Shown: positions 11,823 through 63,777 of the stretch, piece after piece
Numbering within the stretch: the stretch's first letter is position 1
Layout: every line of letters begins with the position of its first letter
DNA from: Escherichia phage inny
Length of the DNA stretch: 64,000 bases
Direction: 5' to 3' (one strand)
Sequence record: MN850601.1
The notes under the pieces: model-generated
Told to the model about the DNA's origin: nothing
The model's input: only the letters and a program-made list of their open reading frames with translations
The model's database searches: none
Made by a program: the position numbers and the translations under genes

Positions 11823-12332
11823 TTAGCGATAAAATTGATGTTCTTTGTAGCGGTACACTAGAACCATATCTTTTTCCCAGTGTGCTCTTATTGTAGATTT
11901 TTTAAAGTATAATGCTCCTTTTGTAATATCTAATGCAATTCGTAATTCTGGAAAATGCGTATCGAGATAAAGTAGACGTTCTGCTATAGCCTTAGCTTCC
12001 TTCCACTTATCACGTTCCATAACGTTGAATGTCTTTGTGTAAGAGAATTGTCCTTTTTGAAACAAAACTTCTTTTATAGTATCAGGGAAATATGAATCTC
12101 TAGCCCTATTCAATACTACATTACCAACAGCAGACATACCGCGCTTTCCTTGATTACGACTTTCTGCATAGATTGCACAAGCTAATAGATTTTCTTTACT
12201 ATCACGCTTTGTACACTTGTGAACTACTTTAGCAGTTTTTACGTTTGCAGCTTCGGCTTGCGCCACAACAGGTGTAAATGTAAAAGCAGTTAAGGATAGT
12301 AACGCAATTGCGACAAAGGTTTTTATTGACAA
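11823..12332 (-). CDS. secreted cell-wall hydrolase (SleB/CwlJ-like)
   Basis: 169 aa; N-terminal signal peptide MSIKTFVAIALLSLTAFTFTPVVAQA; LLACAIYAESRNQG...VGNVVLNRARDSYFPDTIKEVLFQKGQFS resembles Hydrolase_2 family. Confidence 0.55.
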   Translation of the reverse strand: MSIKTFVAIALLSLTAFTFTPVVAQAEAANVKTAKVVHKCTKRDSKENLLACAIYAESRNQGKRGMSAVGNVVLNRARDSYFPDTIKEVLFQKGQFSYTKTFNVMERDKWKEAKAIAERLLYLDTHFPELRIALDITKGALYFKKSTIRAHWEKDMVLVYRYKEHQFYR

Positions 12333-55342: not shown

Positions 55343-55470
55343 AATAATTGATAGGGAAATCCTATACTAATCCCTCCATTAATGATGTTCCTAGATTACT
55401 GTTCTTGTAATAGATGAAAAGACGCTGTATAATGTGTGGCATGAAACGTAAACTTATAAAGGAGTCTGAT

Positions 55471-55848
55471 ATGTGTGTCCCTCTCAGCAGTCCACTGCTG
55501 TTAGAATTTTACAAAGCATGGATGGAAGATCATTCCTCAATGCATCGTGAGAATGTTGGTTTGTGTATTTGCCTTATGGATTATCTGGCAACCACTATGT
55601 CAAAGAAAAAACCTACGCAAGAAGATATAGAACATTTCAAGATGGTTCGTAGTAAAACGTTAGAAGAGATGAAATTGCAATTCACGTGTGCTGGGCTATC
55701 CTCCTTCCTGCCCTTTAATGATGACCTTCTGTGTTATGAAGATGAAGGTAAGAAACATTCTTGCCATACTAACCCAGGGAGATTGCAGTGGGTGAAAGAT
55801 CGTATTGCCGATTCATGTTTGGTGTTAGGGGGTGGTAATGAAAAGTAA
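55471..55848 (+). CDS. hypothetical protein, paralog family A (LLEFYKAW...CHTN..RLQWVKDRI)
   Basis: Track ORF 55414..55848 trimmed to ATG with AAGGAG SD (MCVPLSSPLLLEFYKAWMEDH...). Confidence 0.55.
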   Translation: MCVPLSSPLLLEFYKAWMEDHSSMHRENVGLCICLMDYLATTMSKKKPTQEDIEHFKMVRSKTLEEMKLQFTCAGLSSFLPFNDDLLCYEDEGKKHSCHTNPGRLQWVKDRIADSCLVLGGGNEK

Positions 55849-56206
55849 TATTCCGTTGAGTAGTGCAGCTTTAATACGATTCTATAAAGCATGGATTGCC
55901 AACCATCCGGCAATGAATCGCACAACGAGTGGCTTGTGTGGTTGTCTGGTAGATTATGTAGATGATTTTGTTGGCGAGGTAACTAGAGAAGAAGATAAAA
56001 GATGGCGTGATCGTTTGTTGGATAGTTTGAAATACGAAATGAGGAAACAATTTACATGTGCAGGACTGGACTACAATCTTCCGTTCAATGTAGATTGCAT
56101 GGATTACCTTTCAGAGTGTATAGACTTGGCGTGTCATACCAACACGTTACGTCTTCAATGGGTGAAAGACAGAATCGAAGATGCAAATAATGCTTGCATT
56201 GAATAG
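55838..56206 (+). CDS. hypothetical protein, paralog family A
   Basis: Track ORF trimmed to ATG (MKSNIPLSSAALIRFYKAWIANH...); shares GLCGCLVDY, FTCAGL, LPFN, CHTNTLRLQWVKDRIED. Confidence 0.55.
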   Translation: MKSNIPLSSAALIRFYKAWIANHPAMNRTTSGLCGCLVDYVDDFVGEVTREEDKRWRDRLLDSLKYEMRKQFTCAGLDYNLPFNVDCMDYLSECIDLACHTNTLRLQWVKDRIEDANNACIE

Positions 56207-57988: not shown

Positions 57989-58207
57989 ATGCAAGACAAC
58001 AGTGGATGTAACCTGACTGTAGGTGATACTGTTATTTACACACCGATGAAACCCAATGATTTTCCTATGCTCGGTACTGTTGTAGATATTACAGACCGTT
58101 TTGTCACCATCTCTACAGGAGATATGCAGGTTGTACGTGATCGCAGAAATATCACCCGCTTTACGGACACTAAAACAACATCTGAGAAGTGGTATCCTGT
58201 ACACTAA
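57989..58207 (+). CDS. hypothetical protein
   Basis: 72 aa; AAGGAGAG SD. Confidence 0.5.
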   Translation: MQDNSGCNLTVGDTVIYTPMKPNDFPMLGTVVDITDRFVTISTGDMQVVRDRRNITRFTDTKTTSEKWYPVH

Positions 58208-58221
58208 AAGGAGTGTGTAAC

Positions 58222-58563
58222 ATGAAAAGCAGCCCCTATTTGCTAGAATTTTATAAGTGGTGGTTAGAACAAGAAGATACAAACTTTAGCAAAAAGCATT
58301 ATGGTCTTTGCACGTGTCTTGTAGACTTCTTATACAATATTGCTTGGATAAAAGATGTTGAGAGTGTATCAAAGCTCCAATCCTCTGTACGAGAGGAAAT
58401 GAAGGAACAGTTTAAGAAAGCGGGTTTGAACCATTTACATCCGTTTAATACGGATTTCTCGCACTACTTTACGGAAACAGAACTAGGCATTGCACACCTT
58501 AATAAAGAACGTGTACAATGGGTGATTGATCGTATTCGTGATATGGAGGAATACAATGGTTAA
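58222..58563 (+). CDS. hypothetical protein, paralog family A
   Basis: Track ORF trimmed to ATG (MKSSPYLLEFYKWWLEQ...); GLCTCLVDF, LHPFN, RVQWVIDRIRD. Confidence 0.55.
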   Translation: MKSSPYLLEFYKWWLEQEDTNFSKKHYGLCTCLVDFLYNIAWIKDVESVSKLQSSVREEMKEQFKKAGLNHLHPFNTDFSHYFTETELGIAHLNKERVQWVIDRIRDMEEYNG

Positions 58564-58765
58564 GTTTAAAACTTTCTGTGCAATCACTGTTTGTCTTATT
58601 CTTGCATACGTGTTATTCTCTAGTATCATTCGTTTAGGTGAGTATATGGCAAGAGAAGCTCGTGAAAGTGAAGCTAAAAAAGAACAGTGCATCGTGTTAA
58701 AGCACCAAAGGGATGCTGAAAAATTTCTTGAACAGGATTGTGGGCGCTATGTGAATTATAATTAG
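58556..58765 (+). CDS. small membrane-anchored protein, paralog family B
   Basis: Track ORF trimmed to ATG (MVKFKTFCAITVCLILAYVLF...); C-terminus KEQCIVLKHQRDAEKFLEQDC matches 63553..63777. Confidence 0.5.
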   Translation: MVKFKTFCAITVCLILAYVLFSSIIRLGEYMAREARESEAKKEQCIVLKHQRDAEKFLEQDCGRYVNYN

Positions 58766-58774
58766 GAGGGAAGT

Positions 58775-59023
58775 ATGTTAGATATTTTTACCTTTGATCG
58801 TGTTGGTACACCGATTACCGAAGAAGAACGTACCAAAATTGAACAAGAATTGGATGCTTTACGTGCGTCTCTTACAGACACAGCCTCACTACAACGTGAA
58901 GCTGCACATCTCACAGAGATCACTGGTATTCAGTGGAACACGGAGTGGGTTGTAATTACAATTGAAGCGGATATTTGGGGACATGAAGAGACGCTACGTA
59001 CCGGAGTAGTAACGGTTTGGTGA
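58775..59023 (+). CDS. hypothetical protein
   Basis: 82 aa; AGGAGGG SD. Confidence 0.55.
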   Translation: MLDIFTFDRVGTPITEEERTKIEQELDALRASLTDTASLQREAAHLTEITGIQWNTEWVVITIEADIWGHEETLRTGVVTVW

Positions 59024-59069
59024 TAGATGTTATTCTTTTGTGTTTCTTGATATATAAATAGGAGGGTTT

Positions 59070-59294
59070 ATGGTAAAACGTCTGGAATGGGATGCGTGTA
59101 CTGCTCACGCTTGTCACTGTGATATTGTTGAAGATCCTAATGGAGAGATGGTGTATTATGAGGATTACGAAGCATTGCACAATGCTGTGATTGCTTTACT
59201 GGATGATATTAGCTCACGCTATCCAGGACAACAATTCACGTGTCCACATATCCAACTATTAGCCGAACTTACGGAGTATCCAAGTGTTCCATAA
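59070..59294 (+). CDS. hypothetical Cys/His-rich protein
   Basis: 74 aa; AGGAGGG SD; CTAHACHCD ... CPH. Confidence 0.5.
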   Translation: MVKRLEWDACTAHACHCDIVEDPNGEMVYYEDYEALHNAVIALLDDISSRYPGQQFTCPHIQLLAELTEYPSVP

Positions 59295-59295
59295 T

Positions 59296-59463
59296 ATGGG
59301 TGTCCCTGAACAACTGCTCTTTATTGTAGGATTAGTAGGCTTATTGGCGGCTGGCGCTAAAGCCGCTTCTCACACGCATTACATAATGTTAAGATTTCTG
59401 TTCCTACTCCCTTCTATCCTTGTATTATTAGTCATATTGATTGATAACATTTTTCACAATTAA
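59296..59463 (+). CDS. tiny membrane protein (about 55 aa), speculative
   Basis: MGVPEQLLFIVGLVGLLAAGAKAASHTHYIMLRFLFLLPSILVLLVILIDNIFHN. Confidence 0.3.
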   Translation: MGVPEQLLFIVGLVGLLAAGAKAASHTHYIMLRFLFLLPSILVLLVILIDNIFHN

Positions 59464-59472
59464 GGAGAGGTT

Positions 59473-60057
59473 ATGAGTAAAATTATACCAAGCAGTTATG
59501 AATTATTGCAGTTTTATGTATATTACTTAGACTGGGTTAATAGATCGAATGTTAAAGACAATGCGATGTTTAGTAAAAACATCTGTTTAACAGAAAGTAT
59601 CTTCCGTTATTGGCACACAGGCAGAAAGTGTACACACAGTGAAGCTATGCGCATTGTAGGTGAATACCTGGAGCAATTGCAAAAAGCAGAACTTCCTGTC
59701 CTTCACCCATTCAACGAATCTAAAGAAGAATTAGAACAAGAGTGTAGAGAAGGTAAGTGCCATTTAAATGAAAAACGTATCGAATGGGTGAGGCAACGTT
59801 TAGCCGATGCAGGGAATCCTCCTAGTGACTCTGACTATACGTGGTATGATGTAGAGGGTTTAGTTCAAGGTTTTGAGGCTTGTGCTATAGGTAATACCAA
59901 CTTTGCCAAAGTTTTATGCGAGGTTTATGATCTGGCAGATAAAATCCGAAATCACGGATGGAAACAAGAGCATAAAGAATCATATGAACGCCTTGACAAG
60001 ATTTTCAAACAGATCTATTCTAACCACAAAGAGATGTTCCAAATGGAGGATGTGTAA
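59473..60057 (+). CDS. hypothetical protein, distant member of paralog family A
   Basis: 194 aa; AAGGAGAGG SD; LLQFYVYYLDW, LHPFN, RIEWVRQRLAD. Confidence 0.55.
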   Translation: MSKIIPSSYELLQFYVYYLDWVNRSNVKDNAMFSKNICLTESIFRYWHTGRKCTHSEAMRIVGEYLEQLQKAELPVLHPFNESKEELEQECREGKCHLNEKRIEWVRQRLADAGNPPSDSDYTWYDVEGLVQGFEACAIGNTNFAKVLCEVYDLADKIRNHGWKQEHKESYERLDKIFKQIYSNHKEMFQMEDV

Positions 60058-60743
60058 TGAAAGAGATTATGTTTGAAGGGCATCGTTACGAAGTTCCAGA
60101 CAATGCAAATTTCATGGCTCGTGATATCACTGGAGATGTGTTCTGGTTTGAAGATGAACCTGTGTTTTCTTCGAACAAACACTGGTTTTCACAACAATCT
60201 TCTTCGGAAAATATGACTTTTGGCTACGTAGAGCCTAAAGTGCGCTGCAAAGCAGCTTCTTCTTTGGTAAAAATTTCCCAAGATGATCAAGAAAATACTC
60301 CAGATGTTGTTAGTGCACTACTGAAGTACATTGCAGAACTTGAGAAGAAAATTAAAGAAGCAGAAACTAAGGTGAAAGCACGATCAGCCATCATTGAAGC
60401 TATGTCTGAACGTATCTTAGAGCTAGAAGATTTGTGTGGAGAGGCTTATCAAGTGGTTGGTGCGCTGGCTTGTGAAGCACAAATGTTTGAAACTTCAGAA
60501 CAAGTTTCACATATGTTAGATAATTTGAGTGAATGTAAAATGATTCATGATGATGTATTGCCATTTTGTTGCAATGTTAACAAAACAGAGCAAACACAAG
60601 ATTCAGAAACAGTTTATGTTCCGCTAATGTGTGTTCCAGATCATCTAAAAGGTGTATTCTCTTGTAAATGGTCGCTGTTGAGCGTTACTAATTGTGGTGA
60701 AAACTATTCTGCCAACATTGAATTGCTAAAACACGTTAAATAA
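60057..60743 (+). CDS. hypothetical Cys-rich protein
   Basis: 228 aa; GGAGGA SD; coiled-coil centre. Confidence 0.55.
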   Translation: MKEIMFEGHRYEVPDNANFMARDITGDVFWFEDEPVFSSNKHWFSQQSSSENMTFGYVEPKVRCKAASSLVKISQDDQENTPDVVSALLKYIAELEKKIKEAETKVKARSAIIEAMSERILELEDLCGEAYQVVGALACEAQMFETSEQVSHMLDNLSECKMIHDDVLPFCCNVNKTEQTQDSETVYVPLMCVPDHLKGVFSCKWSLLSVTNCGENYSANIELLKHVK

Positions 60744-60753
60744 GGAGAGTAAT

Positions 60754-61158
60754 ATGTGGTCTGTTAAAATCAAATATAATGCGCAGTATTATGGTGGAAA
60801 GCCTTACGAAGTTGTTATTTGTGACTGTATCTCTAAAGAAGTTGCACAGCTTTGTGGCGCTGGTGTTAGTGAAGCTATGAACAAAATGCATAACTCGACT
60901 GTGCGTTACCTGGATCAAGATATTCCAGAAGATGTAAATGACTATGCTTACGAAGTTATTTACAGTGAAGGTAAGAAGCTCTCTATTGAAGATGCACTTA
61001 AAGCACTACCTGCTATGTGCAGCCCAACGCCAGAAGCAGTTAAAGAGGTTTTACCAGAATCCAACCCCGATGAATATGCTTCTATGGTTGCTTCAGATAT
61101 GTGGAATCTCTGTCGAGAAACTATGATTAAAAATCTTGTGGAAATGGCGCATGAGTAA
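60754..61158 (+). CDS. hypothetical protein
   Basis: 134 aa; AAGGAGAG SD. Confidence 0.55.
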   Translation: MWSVKIKYNAQYYGGKPYEVVICDCISKEVAQLCGAGVSEAMNKMHNSTVRYLDQDIPEDVNDYAYEVIYSEGKKLSIEDALKALPAMCSPTPEAVKEVLPESNPDEYASMVASDMWNLCRETMIKNLVEMAHE

Positions 61159-61369
61159 AACACACTTTATACATCCGTTTGATCCAAAGAACAAGGCGGT
61201 TATACACCGCCGTTGGACTGAAACGCGCATTACAAAATGTCCTGTGCCAGCAGCACAGGAATATAACAAAACATATAAAGCAGAATTTGTGGAGTACACC
61301 TTTGTAAATAACAAAGGGAAGGAGGTTTATGTTCCAGAATACTGCCTTTGGATAAAATGGGAGGAATAA
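61151..61369 (+). CDS. hypothetical protein
   Basis: Track ORF 61136..61369 trimmed to ATG (MSKTHFIHPF...). Confidence 0.5.
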   Translation: MSKTHFIHPFDPKNKAVIHRRWTETRITKCPVPAAQEYNKTYKAEFVEYTFVNNKGKEVYVPEYCLWIKWEE

Positions 61370-61536
61370 TGCAAACATTTTTTATCGACAAGTTCAATAA
61401 AAGTATGAACACGTGGATGGCAACATTCACTATGCAATTTGCGTCATTTAAAGAAGCTCAAGAATGGTGCGATCAACACAAGGATTTTGATTTTTACTAT
61501 CAAGTTAATGCAAACCTTTCTCCAGAGGAGAAATAA
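61369..61536 (+). CDS. small hypothetical protein (55 aa)
   Basis: Track ORF 61348..61536 trimmed to ATG with GGGAGGA SD (MQTFFIDKF...). Confidence 0.45.
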   Translation: MQTFFIDKFNKSMNTWMATFTMQFASFKEAQEWCDQHKDFDFYYQVNANLSPEEK

Positions 61537-61537
61537 T

Positions 61538-61882
61538 ATGTTGGCTGATATTGAAATCCTTATGTACCGACAAGGTATGATCAAAATGTGGTTAGATTCT
61601 TTTAGCAACATATACTGCACAGTACGATCAGCAGACGAGCGTAAAACGCTTATTTTATCTGCTATTGTTGATAAACAACGTTTCTTCAAAGAAATTTTGC
61701 AAACAGGCTTCTCCGATGCAGGAGTAGAAATTGCAACTCTTAGTCTTGGGGTGCTGTCTTACTTGGAATCTGTTGTTTTATATGTCTTCTCTTTAGAGGA
61801 AGACTTGCAATTCGAAGCATTAAAACTTATCTTAGATGCTGCAATTGACATAGAACAAAATCGAATTGATTCTTTTGAATAA
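61538..61882 (+). CDS. hypothetical protein
   Basis: Track ORF 61439..61882 trimmed to ATG with GGAGAAATAAT upstream (MLADIEIL...). Confidence 0.5.
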   Translation: MLADIEILMYRQGMIKMWLDSFSNIYCTVRSADERKTLILSAIVDKQRFFKEILQTGFSDAGVEIATLSLGVLSYLESVVLYVFSLEEDLQFEALKLILDAAIDIEQNRIDSFE

Positions 61883-61897
61883 AATAAGGAGAAAACT

Positions 61898-62356
61898 ATG
61901 AAAGAGGTTAAACATTATCCACATGGTCGTAGTTTTGTAGCTGTATGGCATGTTCCTGCTCGTAATGAACTATTTTGTGCATCTTTTCATTACAAAGATG
62001 GACAATATTTCACCTATGACGAGACGATGGATGATTTTATCCCAGAGTGCGATCATGGGTATACACCAATGTTCTTTAAACGTATGAAAGCTCGTTTCTT
62101 CGTTACAGATGTTGATGGTGAACCTACTTGGCACATCGAAGAAGATTGGCAAGATTCTGTGGATATTAAAGAAGCCCCAGAATGGGCTACACTACTGGTA
62201 CACGTCAAAACCCCTACTCTTGACGTTATGGCGTGGGTTAATCATGATGATACCCATTACCAATACATAAATGGTAGCACAGAGATTTCTGGTGAGATTA
62301 TTGGTCGTTGGAAGCCTACGAATCAGGTTGCTATTGTCGGGTATAAGACAGTATAA
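61898..62356 (+). CDS. hypothetical protein
   Basis: 152 aa; AAGGAG SD. Confidence 0.55.
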   Translation: MKEVKHYPHGRSFVAVWHVPARNELFCASFHYKDGQYFTYDETMDDFIPECDHGYTPMFFKRMKARFFVTDVDGEPTWHIEEDWQDSVDIKEAPEWATLLVHVKTPTLDVMAWVNHDDTHYQYINGSTEISGEIIGRWKPTNQVAIVGYKTV

Positions 62357-62357
62357 T

Positions 62358-62552
62358 ATGAAAAATAGTGTAGATTGGGATGATTTATCCGATTTTGAAA
62401 AATGGTTCTTAGGTAGTGGTTGTTATGCAGATGGGGATCTCGAAAGAGATCCTTCTGGAAACTACACTATGCCATTAACCCAAGGTTTTTATGAGTGCTG
62501 GTGCGCAGCACAAAACAACGTACTGAATAAGGAGACAACACAATGCAATTAA
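62358..62552 (+). CDS. hypothetical protein
   Basis: Track ORF 62271..62552 trimmed to ATG (MKNSVDWDDL...). Confidence 0.45.
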   Translation: MKNSVDWDDLSDFEKWFLGSGCYADGDLERDPSGNYTMPLTQGFYECWCAAQNNVLNKETTQCN

Positions 62553-62782
62553 ACATCGGACAACCAATTTTTGATGCAGATACTGGTCAATATGCAGTGA
62601 TTGTTGCTCGTATGAGCGGTGATGACCTTATTGTTTCAGAACTACTCGGATCAGATCCGCAACTGCGCGTAGTATGTGACCTATATCTTCGAGACGAAAG
62701 TGATCGCATTGCACTGAAAGAAGATGGTATGCTCTACTATACCTGGACTAGAGATCCTGGGGTAACGGAGGTAGAGGTATAA
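62543..62782 (+). CDS. hypothetical protein
   Basis: 79 aa; AAGGAGA SD. Confidence 0.5.
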   Translation: MQLNIGQPIFDADTGQYAVIVARMSGDDLIVSELLGSDPQLRVVCDLYLRDESDRIALKEDGMLYYTWTRDPGVTEVEV

Positions 62783-63081
62783 TGGTAAGGAATAGGGGTT
62801 TACATAAAAGAAGACACCTTACTTACTGGCATCGTAAAGTACATGAACCTGTATCAAAGAAAGAATGGCAATATCTGCCTTATGGGAAGGAGCGAAGAAA
62901 GTATCTGTTAGCTCATTTAAGGGTACATGGTTCTCTTCCTGTTAACAGTAAGTGGCAATTGCAAACAGCTTATGACGAAGATATGAAATATCTGTTAAAG
63001 AGAGGCATTATTTGCCTTGTTAAGATAGGGCGATGGAAATCTCGTCAATCTTATATCGTACTTAAACAGGAGAAACCATGA
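62782..63081 (+). CDS. hypothetical basic protein (possible winged-helix DNA binding)
   Basis: 99 aa, Arg/Lys-rich; GGAGGTAGAGG upstream. Confidence 0.5.
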   Translation: MVRNRGLHKRRHLTYWHRKVHEPVSKKEWQYLPYGKERRKYLLAHLRVHGSLPVNSKWQLQTAYDEDMKYLLKRGIICLVKIGRWKSRQSYIVLKQEKP

Positions 63082-63329
63082 ATATCAAAGATGTTGTAGC
63101 ATATGTAGAAGATGAAGTTAAAAACCATACAAGTTTACTGAAAGTAATGGTTGTGGTTAAAGATGGTATTGGACAAGTAAACGTACAACATGTCTTATCT
63201 GACACTGTATACAATGTGTTTGAATGTAAAGAAACACCTCATGGAGTACGTGTGGTTTATATTGATAACAATTTCAAAGAATGTGTGAGACATACCTTAG
63301 AAGATGAACTAAGGATCACAATCTTATGA
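63078..63329 (+). CDS. hypothetical protein
   Basis: 83 aa; AGGAGAAACC SD. Confidence 0.5.
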   Translation: MNIKDVVAYVEDEVKNHTSLLKVMVVVKDGIGQVNVQHVLSDTVYNVFECKETPHGVRVVYIDNNFKECVRHTLEDELRITIL

Positions 63330-63499
63330 GTTATTATGTTGTACCTTATGCCAATAAGTGGAGAGTAAGAGAAACTTGTTTTCTATTCTCCTGGTGGGCT
63401 ACGTTCGGAGATGGTTGTGGAAATGATACAGGAAAGCCTGTAGAGTACGACACAAAAGAAGAATGTGAACAATGGATAAAATTAACACAAAGATGTTGA
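63326..63499 (+). CDS. small hypothetical protein (about 57 aa)
   Basis: Below track cut-off; MSYYVVPYANKWRVRETCFLFSWWATFGDGCGND...; coordinates approximate. Confidence 0.35.
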   Translation: MSYYVVPYANKWRVRETCFLFSWWATFGDGCGNDTGKPVEYDTKEECEQWIKLTQRC

Positions 63500-63552
63500 C
63501 ACGATCTTAACTTCTTGTTAGTATCAATGTGTACTAACGATAAGGAGGGTTT

Positions 63553-63777
63553 ATGAAGTCTGTAAACAAGTTGCAACAATTTTTGTTATCAACAGCAATC
63601 TCTTTGCTTTTGTTAATTGGTATTCTGTATGGTGCATCTAACTTGTACAATCTACATAATGATGTAGAACAGAACAAAGAGAAGTGCATCATTCTAAAAC
63701 ACAATAAACAAGCAGAAGATTTCTTAAAGAATAAGTGTTACAACTACATTGATTATGAGGAGACAAACAATGATTAA
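63553..63777 (+). CDS. small membrane-anchored protein, paralog family B
   Basis: 74 aa; AAGGAGGG SD; TM helix then KEKCIILKHNKQAEDFLKNKC. Confidence 0.5.
   Translation: MKSVNKLQQFLLSTAISLLLLIGILYGASNLYNLHNDVEQNKEKCIILKHNKQAEDFLKNKCYNYIDYEETNND

What the first reader, a model, noticed from the sequence alone, without database searches (positions are those of the whole stretch)
58556..63777. Paralogous small membrane-anchored proteins with conserved C-terminal KE(Q/K)CI(V/I)LKH...FL...C motif
58556-58765 and 63553-63777 both have an N-terminal TM helix followed by a conserved Cys-containing C-terminal segment (KEQCIVLKHQRDAEKFLEQDC versus KEKCIILKHNKQAEDFLKNKC). They could be membrane-targeted effectors such as superinfection exclusion or lysis-timing factors.
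Basis: seen in the sequence. Interest (0 to 1): 0.4.

Follow-up and report, generated by a model that had tools for sequence, protein, structure and literature searches.

The report
Paired phage membrane-anchored mini-proteins, disulfide knob
Two small genes in the early region of a phi92-like E. coli phage are true duplicates that most likely encode inner-membrane-anchored mini-proteins displaying a two-cysteine helical knob in the periplasm; the family is real, phage-only and uncharacterised, and its function (best guess: blocking a second infecting phage) is untested.

Summary
Window 58556-58765 (69 aa, Phi92_gp007-like, "A") and 63553-63777 (74 aa, Phi92_gp022, "B") are intact ORFs with good ribosome-binding sites. 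Their C-terminal 30 residues are 50% identical (BLASTP E=1e-10). Each hits the other's PHROG, and there is no third copy in the genome.

The window is a Justusliebigvirus (phi92-like coliphage). An exhaustive profile search of 1.84 billion representative proteins found only 18 clusters. The 20 intact members I aligned (61-83 aa) share one plan:
- a sequence-variable hydrophobic N-terminal segment
- a 12-23-residue charged linker
- a conserved E-x-C-[IV]-x-x-K...A-x-x-F-L-x3-C-x2-[YWLF]-x2-[YW] module with an invariant C-x16-C

AlphaFold2 (pLDDT 81-84) gives one long helix, a turn and a short helix. Nothing matches in Pfam, NCBIfam, PADLOC, PDB or bacterial genomes.

Both genes are under purifying selection (pN/pS about 0.3) and lie far from the annotated lysis genes.

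Best reading: N-in/C-out anchor-stalk-knob proteins with a periplasmic disulfide that bind a periplasm-exposed target. They resemble T4 Spackle and SPO1 gp56 in kind, not in sequence. Superinfection exclusion is the leading guess, but weakly supported. This is an ordinary kind of phage gene in an undescribed family, so interest is modest.

The parts
58556..58765 (+). Gene A: 69-aa protein, orthologue of Phi92_gp007, phrog_15662
   Evidence: ORF and translation. Annotated as a hypothetical CDS in every related record. pN/pS 0.30 across 6 genomes. phrog_15662 E=9.5e-33.
58545..58549 (+). GGAGG ribosome-binding site of A, 6 nt before the ATG. A's start overlaps the stop of the upstream gp006-like gene by 8 nt (ATGGTTAA, 58556-58563), which suggests translational coupling.
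   Evidence: Read directly from the sequence. The phi92 record annotates the same RBS.
58574..58630 (+). A residues 7-25, FCAITVCLILAYVLFSSII: predicted membrane anchor, preceded by MVKFKT (+2)
   Evidence: Hydropathy 2.55. Part of the long helix 2-50 in the AF2 model.
58682..58759 (+). A residues 43-68, EQCIVLKHQRDAEKFLEQDCGRYVNY: conserved knob with invariant Cys45 and Cys62 (C-x16-C)
   Evidence: Alignments A1 and A2. AF2 gives helix to residue 50, turn 51-53, helix 54-59.
63553..63777 (+). Gene B: 74-aa protein, orthologue of Phi92_gp022, phrog_23204
   Evidence: ORF and translation. phrog_23204 E=3.1e-50. pN/pS 0.29 across 9 genomes. Present in all 55 Justusliebigvirus records and only there.
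63496..63524 (+). Sigma-70-like promoter candidate TTGACA-17 nt-TAGTAT with a TG extension, in the 53-nt gap upstream of B. B would be the first gene of a transcription unit.
   Evidence: Consensus scan scored 10/12 and the sequence was read directly. Across the region such matches are no commoner than in shuffles, so this is a candidate only.
63543..63548 (+). AGGAGG ribosome-binding site of B
   Evidence: Sequence. Annotated in the phi92 record.
63580..63636 (+). B residues 10-28, FLLSTAISLLLLIGILYGA: predicted membrane anchor or long signal-peptide core, preceded by MKSVNKLQQ (+2)
   Evidence: Hydropathy 2.22. The phi92 record carries a SignalP 3.0 signal-peptide call with cleavage after residue 27.
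63679..63756 (+). B residues 43-68, EKCIILKHNKQAEDFLKNKCYNYIDY: conserved knob with invariant Cys45 and Cys62
   Evidence: Alignment A2. In the AF2 model this is the best-predicted part, pLDDT 89-90 for residues 41-60.
58222..58563 (+). Neighbour of A, for context: gp006-like gene, one of four copies of a multi-copy early family in the window. Its stop overlaps A's start.
   Evidence: phrog_2510 E=1.1e-25. jackhmmer family survey. The same overlapping gene pair occurs in phAPEC8.

Best explanation
A and B are two diverged copies of one phage-specific gene family. Each encodes a bitopic inner-membrane mini-protein with three parts:
- a short positively charged N-terminus in the cytoplasm
- one hydrophobic helix as the anchor
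- a 12-23-residue charged helical stalk carrying a roughly 26-residue helix-turn-helix knob in the periplasm

The two invariant cysteines (C-x16-C) would be oxidised there by the host Dsb system, giving a disulfide that staples the knob.

The anchor and stalk only position the knob. The knob is the working part and acts by binding a periplasm-exposed partner.

The genes sit in the presumed early host-takeover block, and B has its own sigma-70-like promoter. The most likely job is therefore to alter the envelope of the already infected cell. My leading guess is superinfection exclusion: blocking the tail tip or DNA delivery of a second phage at the periplasm or inner membrane. T4 achieves this with the early proteins Spackle and Imm. 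The two paralogues would cover two targets or two variants of one target.

Shown here: paralogy, coding status, family limits, the conservation pattern, the predicted secondary structure and the genomic position.

Inferred: topology, the disulfide, early timing, and the idea that the proteins act by binding a partner.

Guess: the partner and the phenotype.
For: Real paralogues:
- BLASTP E=1e-10.
- Window-wide phmmer E=3e-8.
- Reciprocal PHROG cross-hits.
- Structural match between the paralogues in BFVD.

Real genes:
- Strong RBS.
- pN/pS 0.30 and 0.29.
- Protein-level conservation in relatives whose N-terminal halves are unalignable.

Modular plan: in all 20 aligned members there is a 19-residue segment with hydropathy >=1.98, a linker of 12-23 residues, and an invariant C-x16-C. 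Only the C-terminal module is conserved: invariant E43, C45, L58, C62, and near-invariant K49, A54, F57.

Topology hints:
- The N-flank carries 0-2 K/R and almost no acidic residues.
- The C-flank is charge-balanced or acidic.
- The anchors are only 23% Gly/Ala/Ser/Thr on average, like stable anchors.
- The phi92 authors' SignalP run flags gp022 as exported.
- There are only two conserved Cys and no other conserved metal ligand.

Fold: AF2 gives helix ~2-50, turn 51-53, helix 54-59 for both paralogues, with pLDDT 84 and 81.

Context:
- About 75 consecutive small + strand genes of unknown function.
- A promoter-like site directly upstream of B.

Family limits:
- The family occurs only in ~150-kb Stephanstirmvirinae-type myoviruses of Escherichia and Klebsiella.
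- It is absent from 185,579 bacterial species genomes.

Precedents for the kind:
- T4 Spackle is early, periplasmic, 75 aa when mature, helical, and has one disulfide (PMC7677548).
- SPO1 gp56 is 79 aa and N-in/C-out, and its extracellular C-terminus is essential (bioRxiv 10.1101/2020.02.06.938217).
Against: - No experiment on any member was found.
- Topology rests on a weak charge bias. The stalks contain as many K/R as D/E.
- The disulfide is inferred from invariance. I could not read coordinates from the AF2 models, which in any case do not model oxidation.
- No partner is identified.
- Promoter-like matches in the region are no more frequent than in shuffles, and no transcriptome was found, so early timing is unproven.
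- pN/pS of 0.3 is higher than in most neighbours (0-0.14 in six of seven; gp008 gave 0.79 on very few changes).
- Database copies of A that are frameshifted before the knob exist, so the genes may be dispensable.
Confidence: 0.4

Rival explanations
1. Host-envelope modulator rather than phage excluder. The periplasmic knob binds a host inner-membrane or periplasmic machine, such as the divisome (FtsQLB), peptidoglycan synthases or a sensor kinase, and switches it off or on during takeover. SPO1 gp56 does this with FtsL/DivIC. E. coli MgrB, a 47-aa bitopic protein with periplasmic cysteines, does it with PhoQ (MgrB from my own knowledge, not checked here).
For: The architecture is the same as gp56: about 79 aa, N-in/C-out, with an essential extracellular C-terminus. 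The knob is conserved across phages of Escherichia and Klebsiella, which fits a conserved enterobacterial target. The genes sit in the presumed host-takeover block.
Against: There is no homology to gp56-type or MgrB-type proteins in any library searched. No host protein carries a detectable copy of the motif. No toxicity or filamentation data exist.
Confidence: 0.2
2. Lysis-timing factor. The protein is an antiholin or holin-like regulator whose periplasmic domain senses or restrains the lysis machinery, as T4 RI does with holin T.
For: It is a small protein with one membrane helix and a charged C-terminal tail, which is the generic holin/antiholin look. T4 rI also lies away from t and e (own knowledge). 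One endolysin-annotated ORF of this phage carries a signal sequence (window 11823-12332), so lysis control must act from the membrane or periplasm.
Against: - The genes are not next to the spanins (genome start) or to either endolysin-annotated gene.
- Only uncharacterised PHROGs are hit, and no holin or antiholin family.
- Conservation is in the exported knob, while the membrane helix is free to vary. That is the opposite of what a hole-former would show.
- The anchors are strongly hydrophobic and not SAR-like.
Confidence: 0.1
3. Secreted rather than anchored. The hydrophobic segment, at least in B, is a cleavable Sec signal peptide, and the product is a free ~47-residue periplasmic mini-protein. 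This is exactly the Spackle arrangement. A may stay anchored, so the duplication would have produced one tethered and one soluble form.
For: The phi92 record annotates a SignalP 3.0 signal peptide for gp022 with cleavage after residue 27, and none for gp007. B has the anchor richest in small residues (37% G/A/S/T) and a Gly at -1.
Against: The h-region of about 18-19 residues is long for a signal peptide. SignalP 3.0 is known to confuse signal anchors with signal peptides (own knowledge). No A-x-A-type site is conserved in the family. AF2 models one continuous helix through the site.
Confidence: 0.25
4. Inverted topology. The N-terminus is outside and the conserved module is cytoplasmic, where the Cys pair serves redox or metal binding, or the module binds a cytoplasmic host factor at the membrane.
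For: Several members have no charged residue before the hydrophobic segment, for example P0036, P0047 and phAPEC8_0031. The stalks contain several K/R.
Against: Most members start with 1-2 K/R and have no acidic residue before the helix. The region just after the helix is net neutral to acidic. Two cysteines alone, with no conserved His or third and fourth Cys, make a poor metal site. A 26-residue module is unlikely to fold stably in a reducing compartment (inference).
Confidence: 0.1
5. Membrane-damaging toxin of the Hok/Gef or small-holin type. The helix itself depolarises the membrane and the tail only tunes it.
For: Size and layout resemble type I toxins: N-terminal helix and an exported Cys-containing tail (own knowledge).
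Against: There is no HOK_GEF or other toxin family hit. The helix is the least conserved part. The genes lie in the presumed early block, and early depolarisation would harm the phage (inference).
Confidence: 0.05

Closest known systems
T4 Spackle (gp61.3), periplasmic superinfection-exclusion protein
   Same: It is an early phage gene product. It is exported to the periplasm, very small (75 aa when mature) and all-helical, and it is stabilised by a single disulfide. It acts by binding a periplasm-exposed target, the gp5 tail lysozyme of an incoming phage (PMC7677548).
   Different: There is no sequence similarity and no fold similarity. Spackle is a five-helix bundle released by signal-peptide cleavage. 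Here the model is a two-helix knob on a stalk that probably stays tethered. The target here is unknown.
SPO1 gp56, host cell-division inhibitor
   Same: It is about 79 aa with a single membrane helix and a predicted N-in/C-out topology. Its short extracytoplasmic C-terminus is essential, and the gene is a host-takeover gene of a large virulent myovirus (bioRxiv 10.1101/2020.02.06.938217).
   Different: gp56 has a 36-residue cytoplasmic N-terminus and works in a Gram-positive host. No Cys pair is described for it. No homology is detectable through the libraries searched. A direct comparison was not run because I did not hold the gp56 sequence.
T4 RI antiholin
   Same: It is a small phage protein with an N-terminal membrane segment and a periplasmic helical domain that works by binding another protein's periplasmic domain (own knowledge; review PMC6832632 was listed but not read).
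   Different: RI has a weakly hydrophobic signal-anchor-release segment, whereas the anchors here are strongly hydrophobic. There is no sequence or fold match. The genes show no link to lysis genes.
PHROG families phrog_15662 and phrog_23204 (function unknown)
   Same: A and B are full-length members: E=9.5e-33 and 3.1e-50.
   Different: PHROGs keeps them as two separate families. The cross-hits (6.9e-7 and 1.7e-8) and the joint profile show that they are one family with two branches.

Membership tests
phrog_15662 / phrog_23204 (uncharacterised phage proteins) | Full-length profile match | tested here: met
   A matches phrog_15662 over residues 1-68 of 69 at E=9.5e-33. B matches phrog_23204 over residues 1-74 of 74 at E=3.1e-50. 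Each also hits the other family.
The family defined here (anchor-stalk-knob, C-x16-C) | One N-terminal hydrophobic helix, a 12-23-residue linker, and a conserved E-x-C...F-L-x3-C module with fixed 16-residue Cys spacing | tested here: met
   All 20 aligned members, including A and B, meet this.
T4 Spackle (gp61.3) | Sequence or fold homology to the Spackle helical bundle | tested here: not met
T4 Spackle (gp61.3) | Exported to the periplasm, with one intramolecular disulfide | tested here: inconclusive
   Charge bias, the invariant Cys pair and the SignalP note in the phi92 record point that way. There is no experimental or coordinate-level check.
T4 Spackle (gp61.3) | Binds and inhibits the tail lysozyme of an incoming phage; confers exclusion | not testable with these tools
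   This needs binding and plating assays.
Holins / antiholins | Match to a holin or antiholin family | tested here: not met
   Only function-unknown PHROGs were hit, and no Pfam family reached its threshold.
Holins / antiholins | Linkage to endolysin or spanin genes (usual but not obligatory) | tested here: not met
   Spanins lie at EmilieFrey 1-667 next to terL. Endolysin-annotated genes lie at window 11823-12332 on the minus strand and at EmilieFrey 115104-115604. Both are tens of kb from A and B.
SPO1 gp56-type division inhibitors | Small N-in/C-out bitopic protein with a functional extracytoplasmic C-terminus | tested here: inconclusive
   The predicted layout agrees, but the topology is not demonstrated.
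SPO1 gp56-type division inhibitors | Binds FtsL/DivIC and blocks division | not testable with these tools
   This needs microscopy and interaction assays.
Hok/Gef type I toxins | Match to Pfam HOK_GEF | tested here: not met
   No such hit at E<=1.
Known anti-phage defence proteins (PADLOC) | Profile match | tested here: not met
   No hit for A or B at E<=1.

The most novel reading that the evidence does not exclude
The C-x16-C knob is a previously unrecognised minimal periplasmic binding module, about 26 residues with one disulfide. Stephanstirmvirinae phages would display it from the inner membrane to disable an envelope-level process. That process could be the genome delivery of competing phages, making this a new superinfection-exclusion class. 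Alternatively it could be a host defence or sensor that reads events in the periplasm. The phi92 lineage would have duplicated the module to hit two targets.
Probability: 0.15. Interest if true: 0.55.

Novelty: new member of a known kind. Interest (0 to 1): 0.3.

Why it matters
If the model is right, it would give a function to a gene family present in every phi92-like and phAPEC8-like phage. These broad-host-range phages are often proposed for therapy and biocontrol. Exclusion of co-infecting phages would bear on cocktail design.

It would also add a very small disulfide-stapled periplasmic binding module to the short list of characterised phage envelope effectors.

In practical terms, two PHROG families should be merged and annotated as one membrane-anchored family. 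As it stands, this is a well-defined but functionally open hypothetical-protein family, not a surprise.

Tried and rejected
- **Library searches.** Pfam, NCBIfam and PADLOC scans gave only sub-threshold noise.
- **Bacterial genomes.** A scan of 185,579 species genomes found no relative.
- **Functional link to the gp006-like neighbour.** I tested whether the adjacent gene points to a function. The pair abuts in Justusliebigvirus, phAPEC8, L005 and L013. However, the neighbour family has 4-5 copies per 10 kb, the gene order flips, and two lineages show no adjacency. Chance cannot be excluded. That family is itself uncharacterised.
- **Head-swap variant P0041.** This 131-aa protein has B's anchor joined to a different C-terminus. 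It is a chimeric 920-bp scaffold: homology to the window stops abruptly at 63682 and GC-rich foreign DNA follows.
- **Signal-anchor-release idea.** Rejected for most members, because their anchors are strongly hydrophobic and poor in small residues.
- **Literature.** I found no functional or transcriptomic work on these genes. The phi92 genome paper (PMC3457257) is not held.

Full report
**What the window is**

The last 7 kb of the window is 95-99% identical at the DNA level to 55 phage records. Nearly all are phi92-like coliphages of the genus Justusliebigvirus (Stephanstirmvirinae). The best matches are vB_EcoM_ZYD, EmilieFrey and muut.

In those records the two ORFs of the finding are always called as genes and always labelled hypothetical. 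They correspond to Phi92_gp007 (A, window 58556-58765) and Phi92_gp022 (B, window 63553-63777). Phage Eryne was annotated with Pharokka plus the structure-based Phold (PMC11984140), and even there A remains hypothetical.

**Checking the observation**

Both ORFs are present at exactly the stated coordinates and translate to the quoted sequences. The similarity is significant by four tests:
- BLASTP aligns residues 39-68 of both proteins with 15/30 identities and 21/30 positives, E=1e-10.
- When each protein is searched against all 1314 six-frame ORFs of the window, the other copy scores E=3e-8 and nothing else scores below E=0.5.
- Each protein hits the PHROG of the other: A to phrog_23204 at 6.9e-7, and B to phrog_15662 at 1.7e-8.
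- The predicted structure of B retrieves only its own orthologue and the A-type paralogue from the viral structure library, TM-score 0.81-0.86.

A family HMM, and an HMM of the C-terminal module alone, were run over the window plus the remaining parts of the EmilieFrey genome. They find exactly two copies per genome.

**Are they real genes?**
- A has a GGAGG box 6 nt upstream. Its ATG overlaps the stop of the preceding gene (ATGGTTAA).
- B has an AGGAGG box. Directly upstream, in a 53-nt intergenic gap, lies TTGACA-17-TAGTAT with a TG extension. Consensus promoter matches in this AT-rich region are no more frequent than in shuffled sequence, so that site is only a candidate.
- Pooled pairwise pN/pS is 0.30 for A (6 genomes) and 0.29 for B (9 genomes). 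That indicates purifying selection, but looser than in six of the seven neighbouring genes measured, which gave 0-0.14. The seventh, gp008, gave 0.79 on very few changes.
- The strongest argument is deep conservation, described next.

**The family**

Word-indexed searches found only close relatives of A and B. I then built a profile of seven sequences and searched it exhaustively against 1.84 billion cluster representatives. It found 18 clusters at E<=1e-3.

Two of those clusters are broken or artefactual (P0030, P0041). P0050 carries only the module, on an N-terminus without a hydrophobic segment. The 20 intact members I aligned are 61-83 aa.

The alignment shows N-terminal halves that are essentially unalignable in sequence. 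The C-terminal module is conserved: invariant E43, C45, L58 and C62, and near-invariant K49, A54 and F57 in B numbering.

The consensus is [KE]E[QE]C[IV]x[LFWY]K[HY]xKxAxKFLxxxCxR[YW]Vx[YW].

Every one of the 20 members has three features:
- a 19-residue window with mean hydropathy >=1.98
- a linker of 12-23 residues (mean 17.5) rich in E, K, A and Q
- an exact C-x16-C spacing

*Distribution.* B-type copies occur in the 55 Justusliebigvirus records and nowhere else in the phage collection. A-type copies occur in 122 records, which also include Phapecoctavirus (phAPEC8, ESCO5/13) and ~150-kb Klebsiella phages. The nearest relative of B outside the genus is P0038 (41% identity), on a 151-kb metagenomic scaffold. 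The B branch is therefore older than the genus.

No relative was found in one genome each of 185,579 bacterial and archaeal species. The family is phage-only and narrow.

**Structure and topology**

AlphaFold2 gave the same picture for A (7-sequence alignment, pLDDT 84) and B (20-sequence alignment, pLDDT 81). There is one uninterrupted helix from about residue 2-4 to residue 50, a turn at 51-53, a short helix at 54-59 and a short tail.

Cys45 lies in the last two turns of the long helix, and Cys62 just after the short helix. In an antiparallel hairpin these positions would face each other, so an intramolecular disulfide is plausible. I could not measure it.

The conserved residues (I46, V/I47, L48, A54, F57, L58, Y65, V/I66, Y68 and the two Cys) are mostly what a tiny hairpin would need as its core. 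Much of the motif may therefore reflect fold rather than interface (inference).

*Topology hints:*
- The N-flank has 0-2 K/R and almost no acidic residues.
- The segment after the helix is net neutral to acidic.
- The phi92 depositors' SignalP 3.0 run calls gp022 a signal peptide with cleavage after residue 27, and gives no such call for gp007.
- The anchors average 23% Gly/Ala/Ser/Thr, so they look like stable anchors rather than releasable ones. B is the richest in small residues at 37%.

Together with a strictly conserved Cys pair and no other conserved metal ligand, this favours an N-in/C-out layout with an oxidised knob in the periplasm. I put this at about 0.7. Whether B stays tethered is an open sub-question.

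**Genomic context**

A and B lie in a run of about 75 consecutive small + strand genes, almost all of unknown function. The run is flanked by replication and nucleotide-metabolism genes on the opposite strand. This is the usual look of an early host-takeover block, but I found no transcriptome to prove it.

The lysis genes are elsewhere. The i- and o-spanins sit beside the large terminase at the conventional genome start. One endolysin-annotated gene is at EmilieFrey 115104-115604. A signal-sequence-bearing, endolysin-annotated ORF is at window 11823-12332 on the minus strand.

A is translationally coupled to a gp006-like gene. The same overlapping pair is present in phAPEC8, and in two metagenomic relatives the order is reversed but still abutting. 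That neighbour belongs to a family with 4-5 copies per 10 kb, and it is absent near the gene in other lineages. I therefore do not treat the linkage as evidence of joint function. That family has no Pfam or PDB relative either.

**Comparison with what is known**

In kind, it resembles two characterised phage effectors:
- **T4 Spackle** is an early product exported to the periplasm. It is 75 aa when mature, helical, carries one disulfide, and blocks the tail lysozyme of a superinfecting phage (PMC7677548).
- **SPO1 gp56** is a 79-aa predicted N-in/C-out protein. Its extracellular C-terminus is needed to inhibit the divisome through FtsL/DivIC (bioRxiv 10.1101/2020.02.06.938217).

T4 RI is a further analogue from my own knowledge.

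**Mechanism**

I commit to an anchor-stalk-knob protein whose knob binds a periplasm-exposed partner. Rough weights for what that partner is:

| Reading | Weight |
|---|---|
| Superinfection exclusion | 0.3 |
| Host-envelope or divisome/sensor modulation | 0.2 |
| Lysis timing | 0.1 |
| Something else | remainder |

The exclusion idea is better placed than the lysis idea.

**Verdict**

This is a genuine paralogous pair in a genuine, narrow and uncharacterised phage family with a neat and testable architecture. It is an ordinary kind of phage gene, and nothing here would surprise a phage biologist.

Noticed in passing
window 55414-55845, 55829-56203, 58222-58563, 59473-60057 (+ strand): This is a multi-copy early gene family (phrog_2510/27059). 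Its motif is LLxFYxxWL...GLCxNL...QFxxAGL..YPF..Y...H.N..R..WV..R. There are four copies in the window and 4-5 per 10 kb in metagenomic relatives. It has no Pfam or PDB relative. It often abuts the TM-Cys gene.
   Followed up: partly
window 57989-58207: An insertion of about 208 bp lies after roughly codon 5 of gp006. Among the genomes compared it occurs only in this window and in vB_EcoM_ZYD. It creates a new 72-aa ORF that borrows gp006's start codon, and gp006 then restarts at an internal ATG (58222).
   Followed up: partly
window 58676-58681 (A6 run in gene A): Database variants of A truncated before the knob (P0029, P0030, P0031) are +1/-1 frameshifts in this A6 run. P0028 is a 1-nt deletion in codon 54. 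These are either sequencing errors or natural knock-outs of the knob.
   Followed up: partly
L023 (ENA scaffold, 920 bp) against window 63275-63682: P0041 (131 aa) joins B's anchor and stalk to an unrelated Cys-containing C-terminus. DNA homology stops abruptly at window 63682 and GC-rich foreign sequence follows. It is most likely an assembly chimera.
   Followed up: yes
window 11823-12332 (- strand): This 169-aa ORF matches the gene annotated as endolysin in phage Eryne. It starts with a clear signal-like sequence (MSIKTFVAIALLSLTAFTFTPVVAQAEA). Related genomes annotate a second endolysin elsewhere, and I saw no annotated holin.
   Followed up: no
window 59284-59463: Phi92_gp009 is a 59-aa protein with two hydrophobic segments. 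It is another tiny membrane protein, lying between A and the next gp006-like paralogue.
   Followed up: no
public records matched: vB_EcoM_ZYD is filed under Vequintavirus although it is 98.7% identical to Justusliebigvirus phages. Four 'Campylobacter phage' records, one 'Serratia' and one 'Salmonella' record are >=95% identical to these coliphages. The taxonomy and host labels look unreliable.
   Followed up: no
window 63770 onward (gene after B): B's last codons overlap the start of the next gene (ATGATTAA, Phi92_gp023-like), which runs past the window end. B may therefore be translationally coupled to its downstream neighbour.
   Followed up: no
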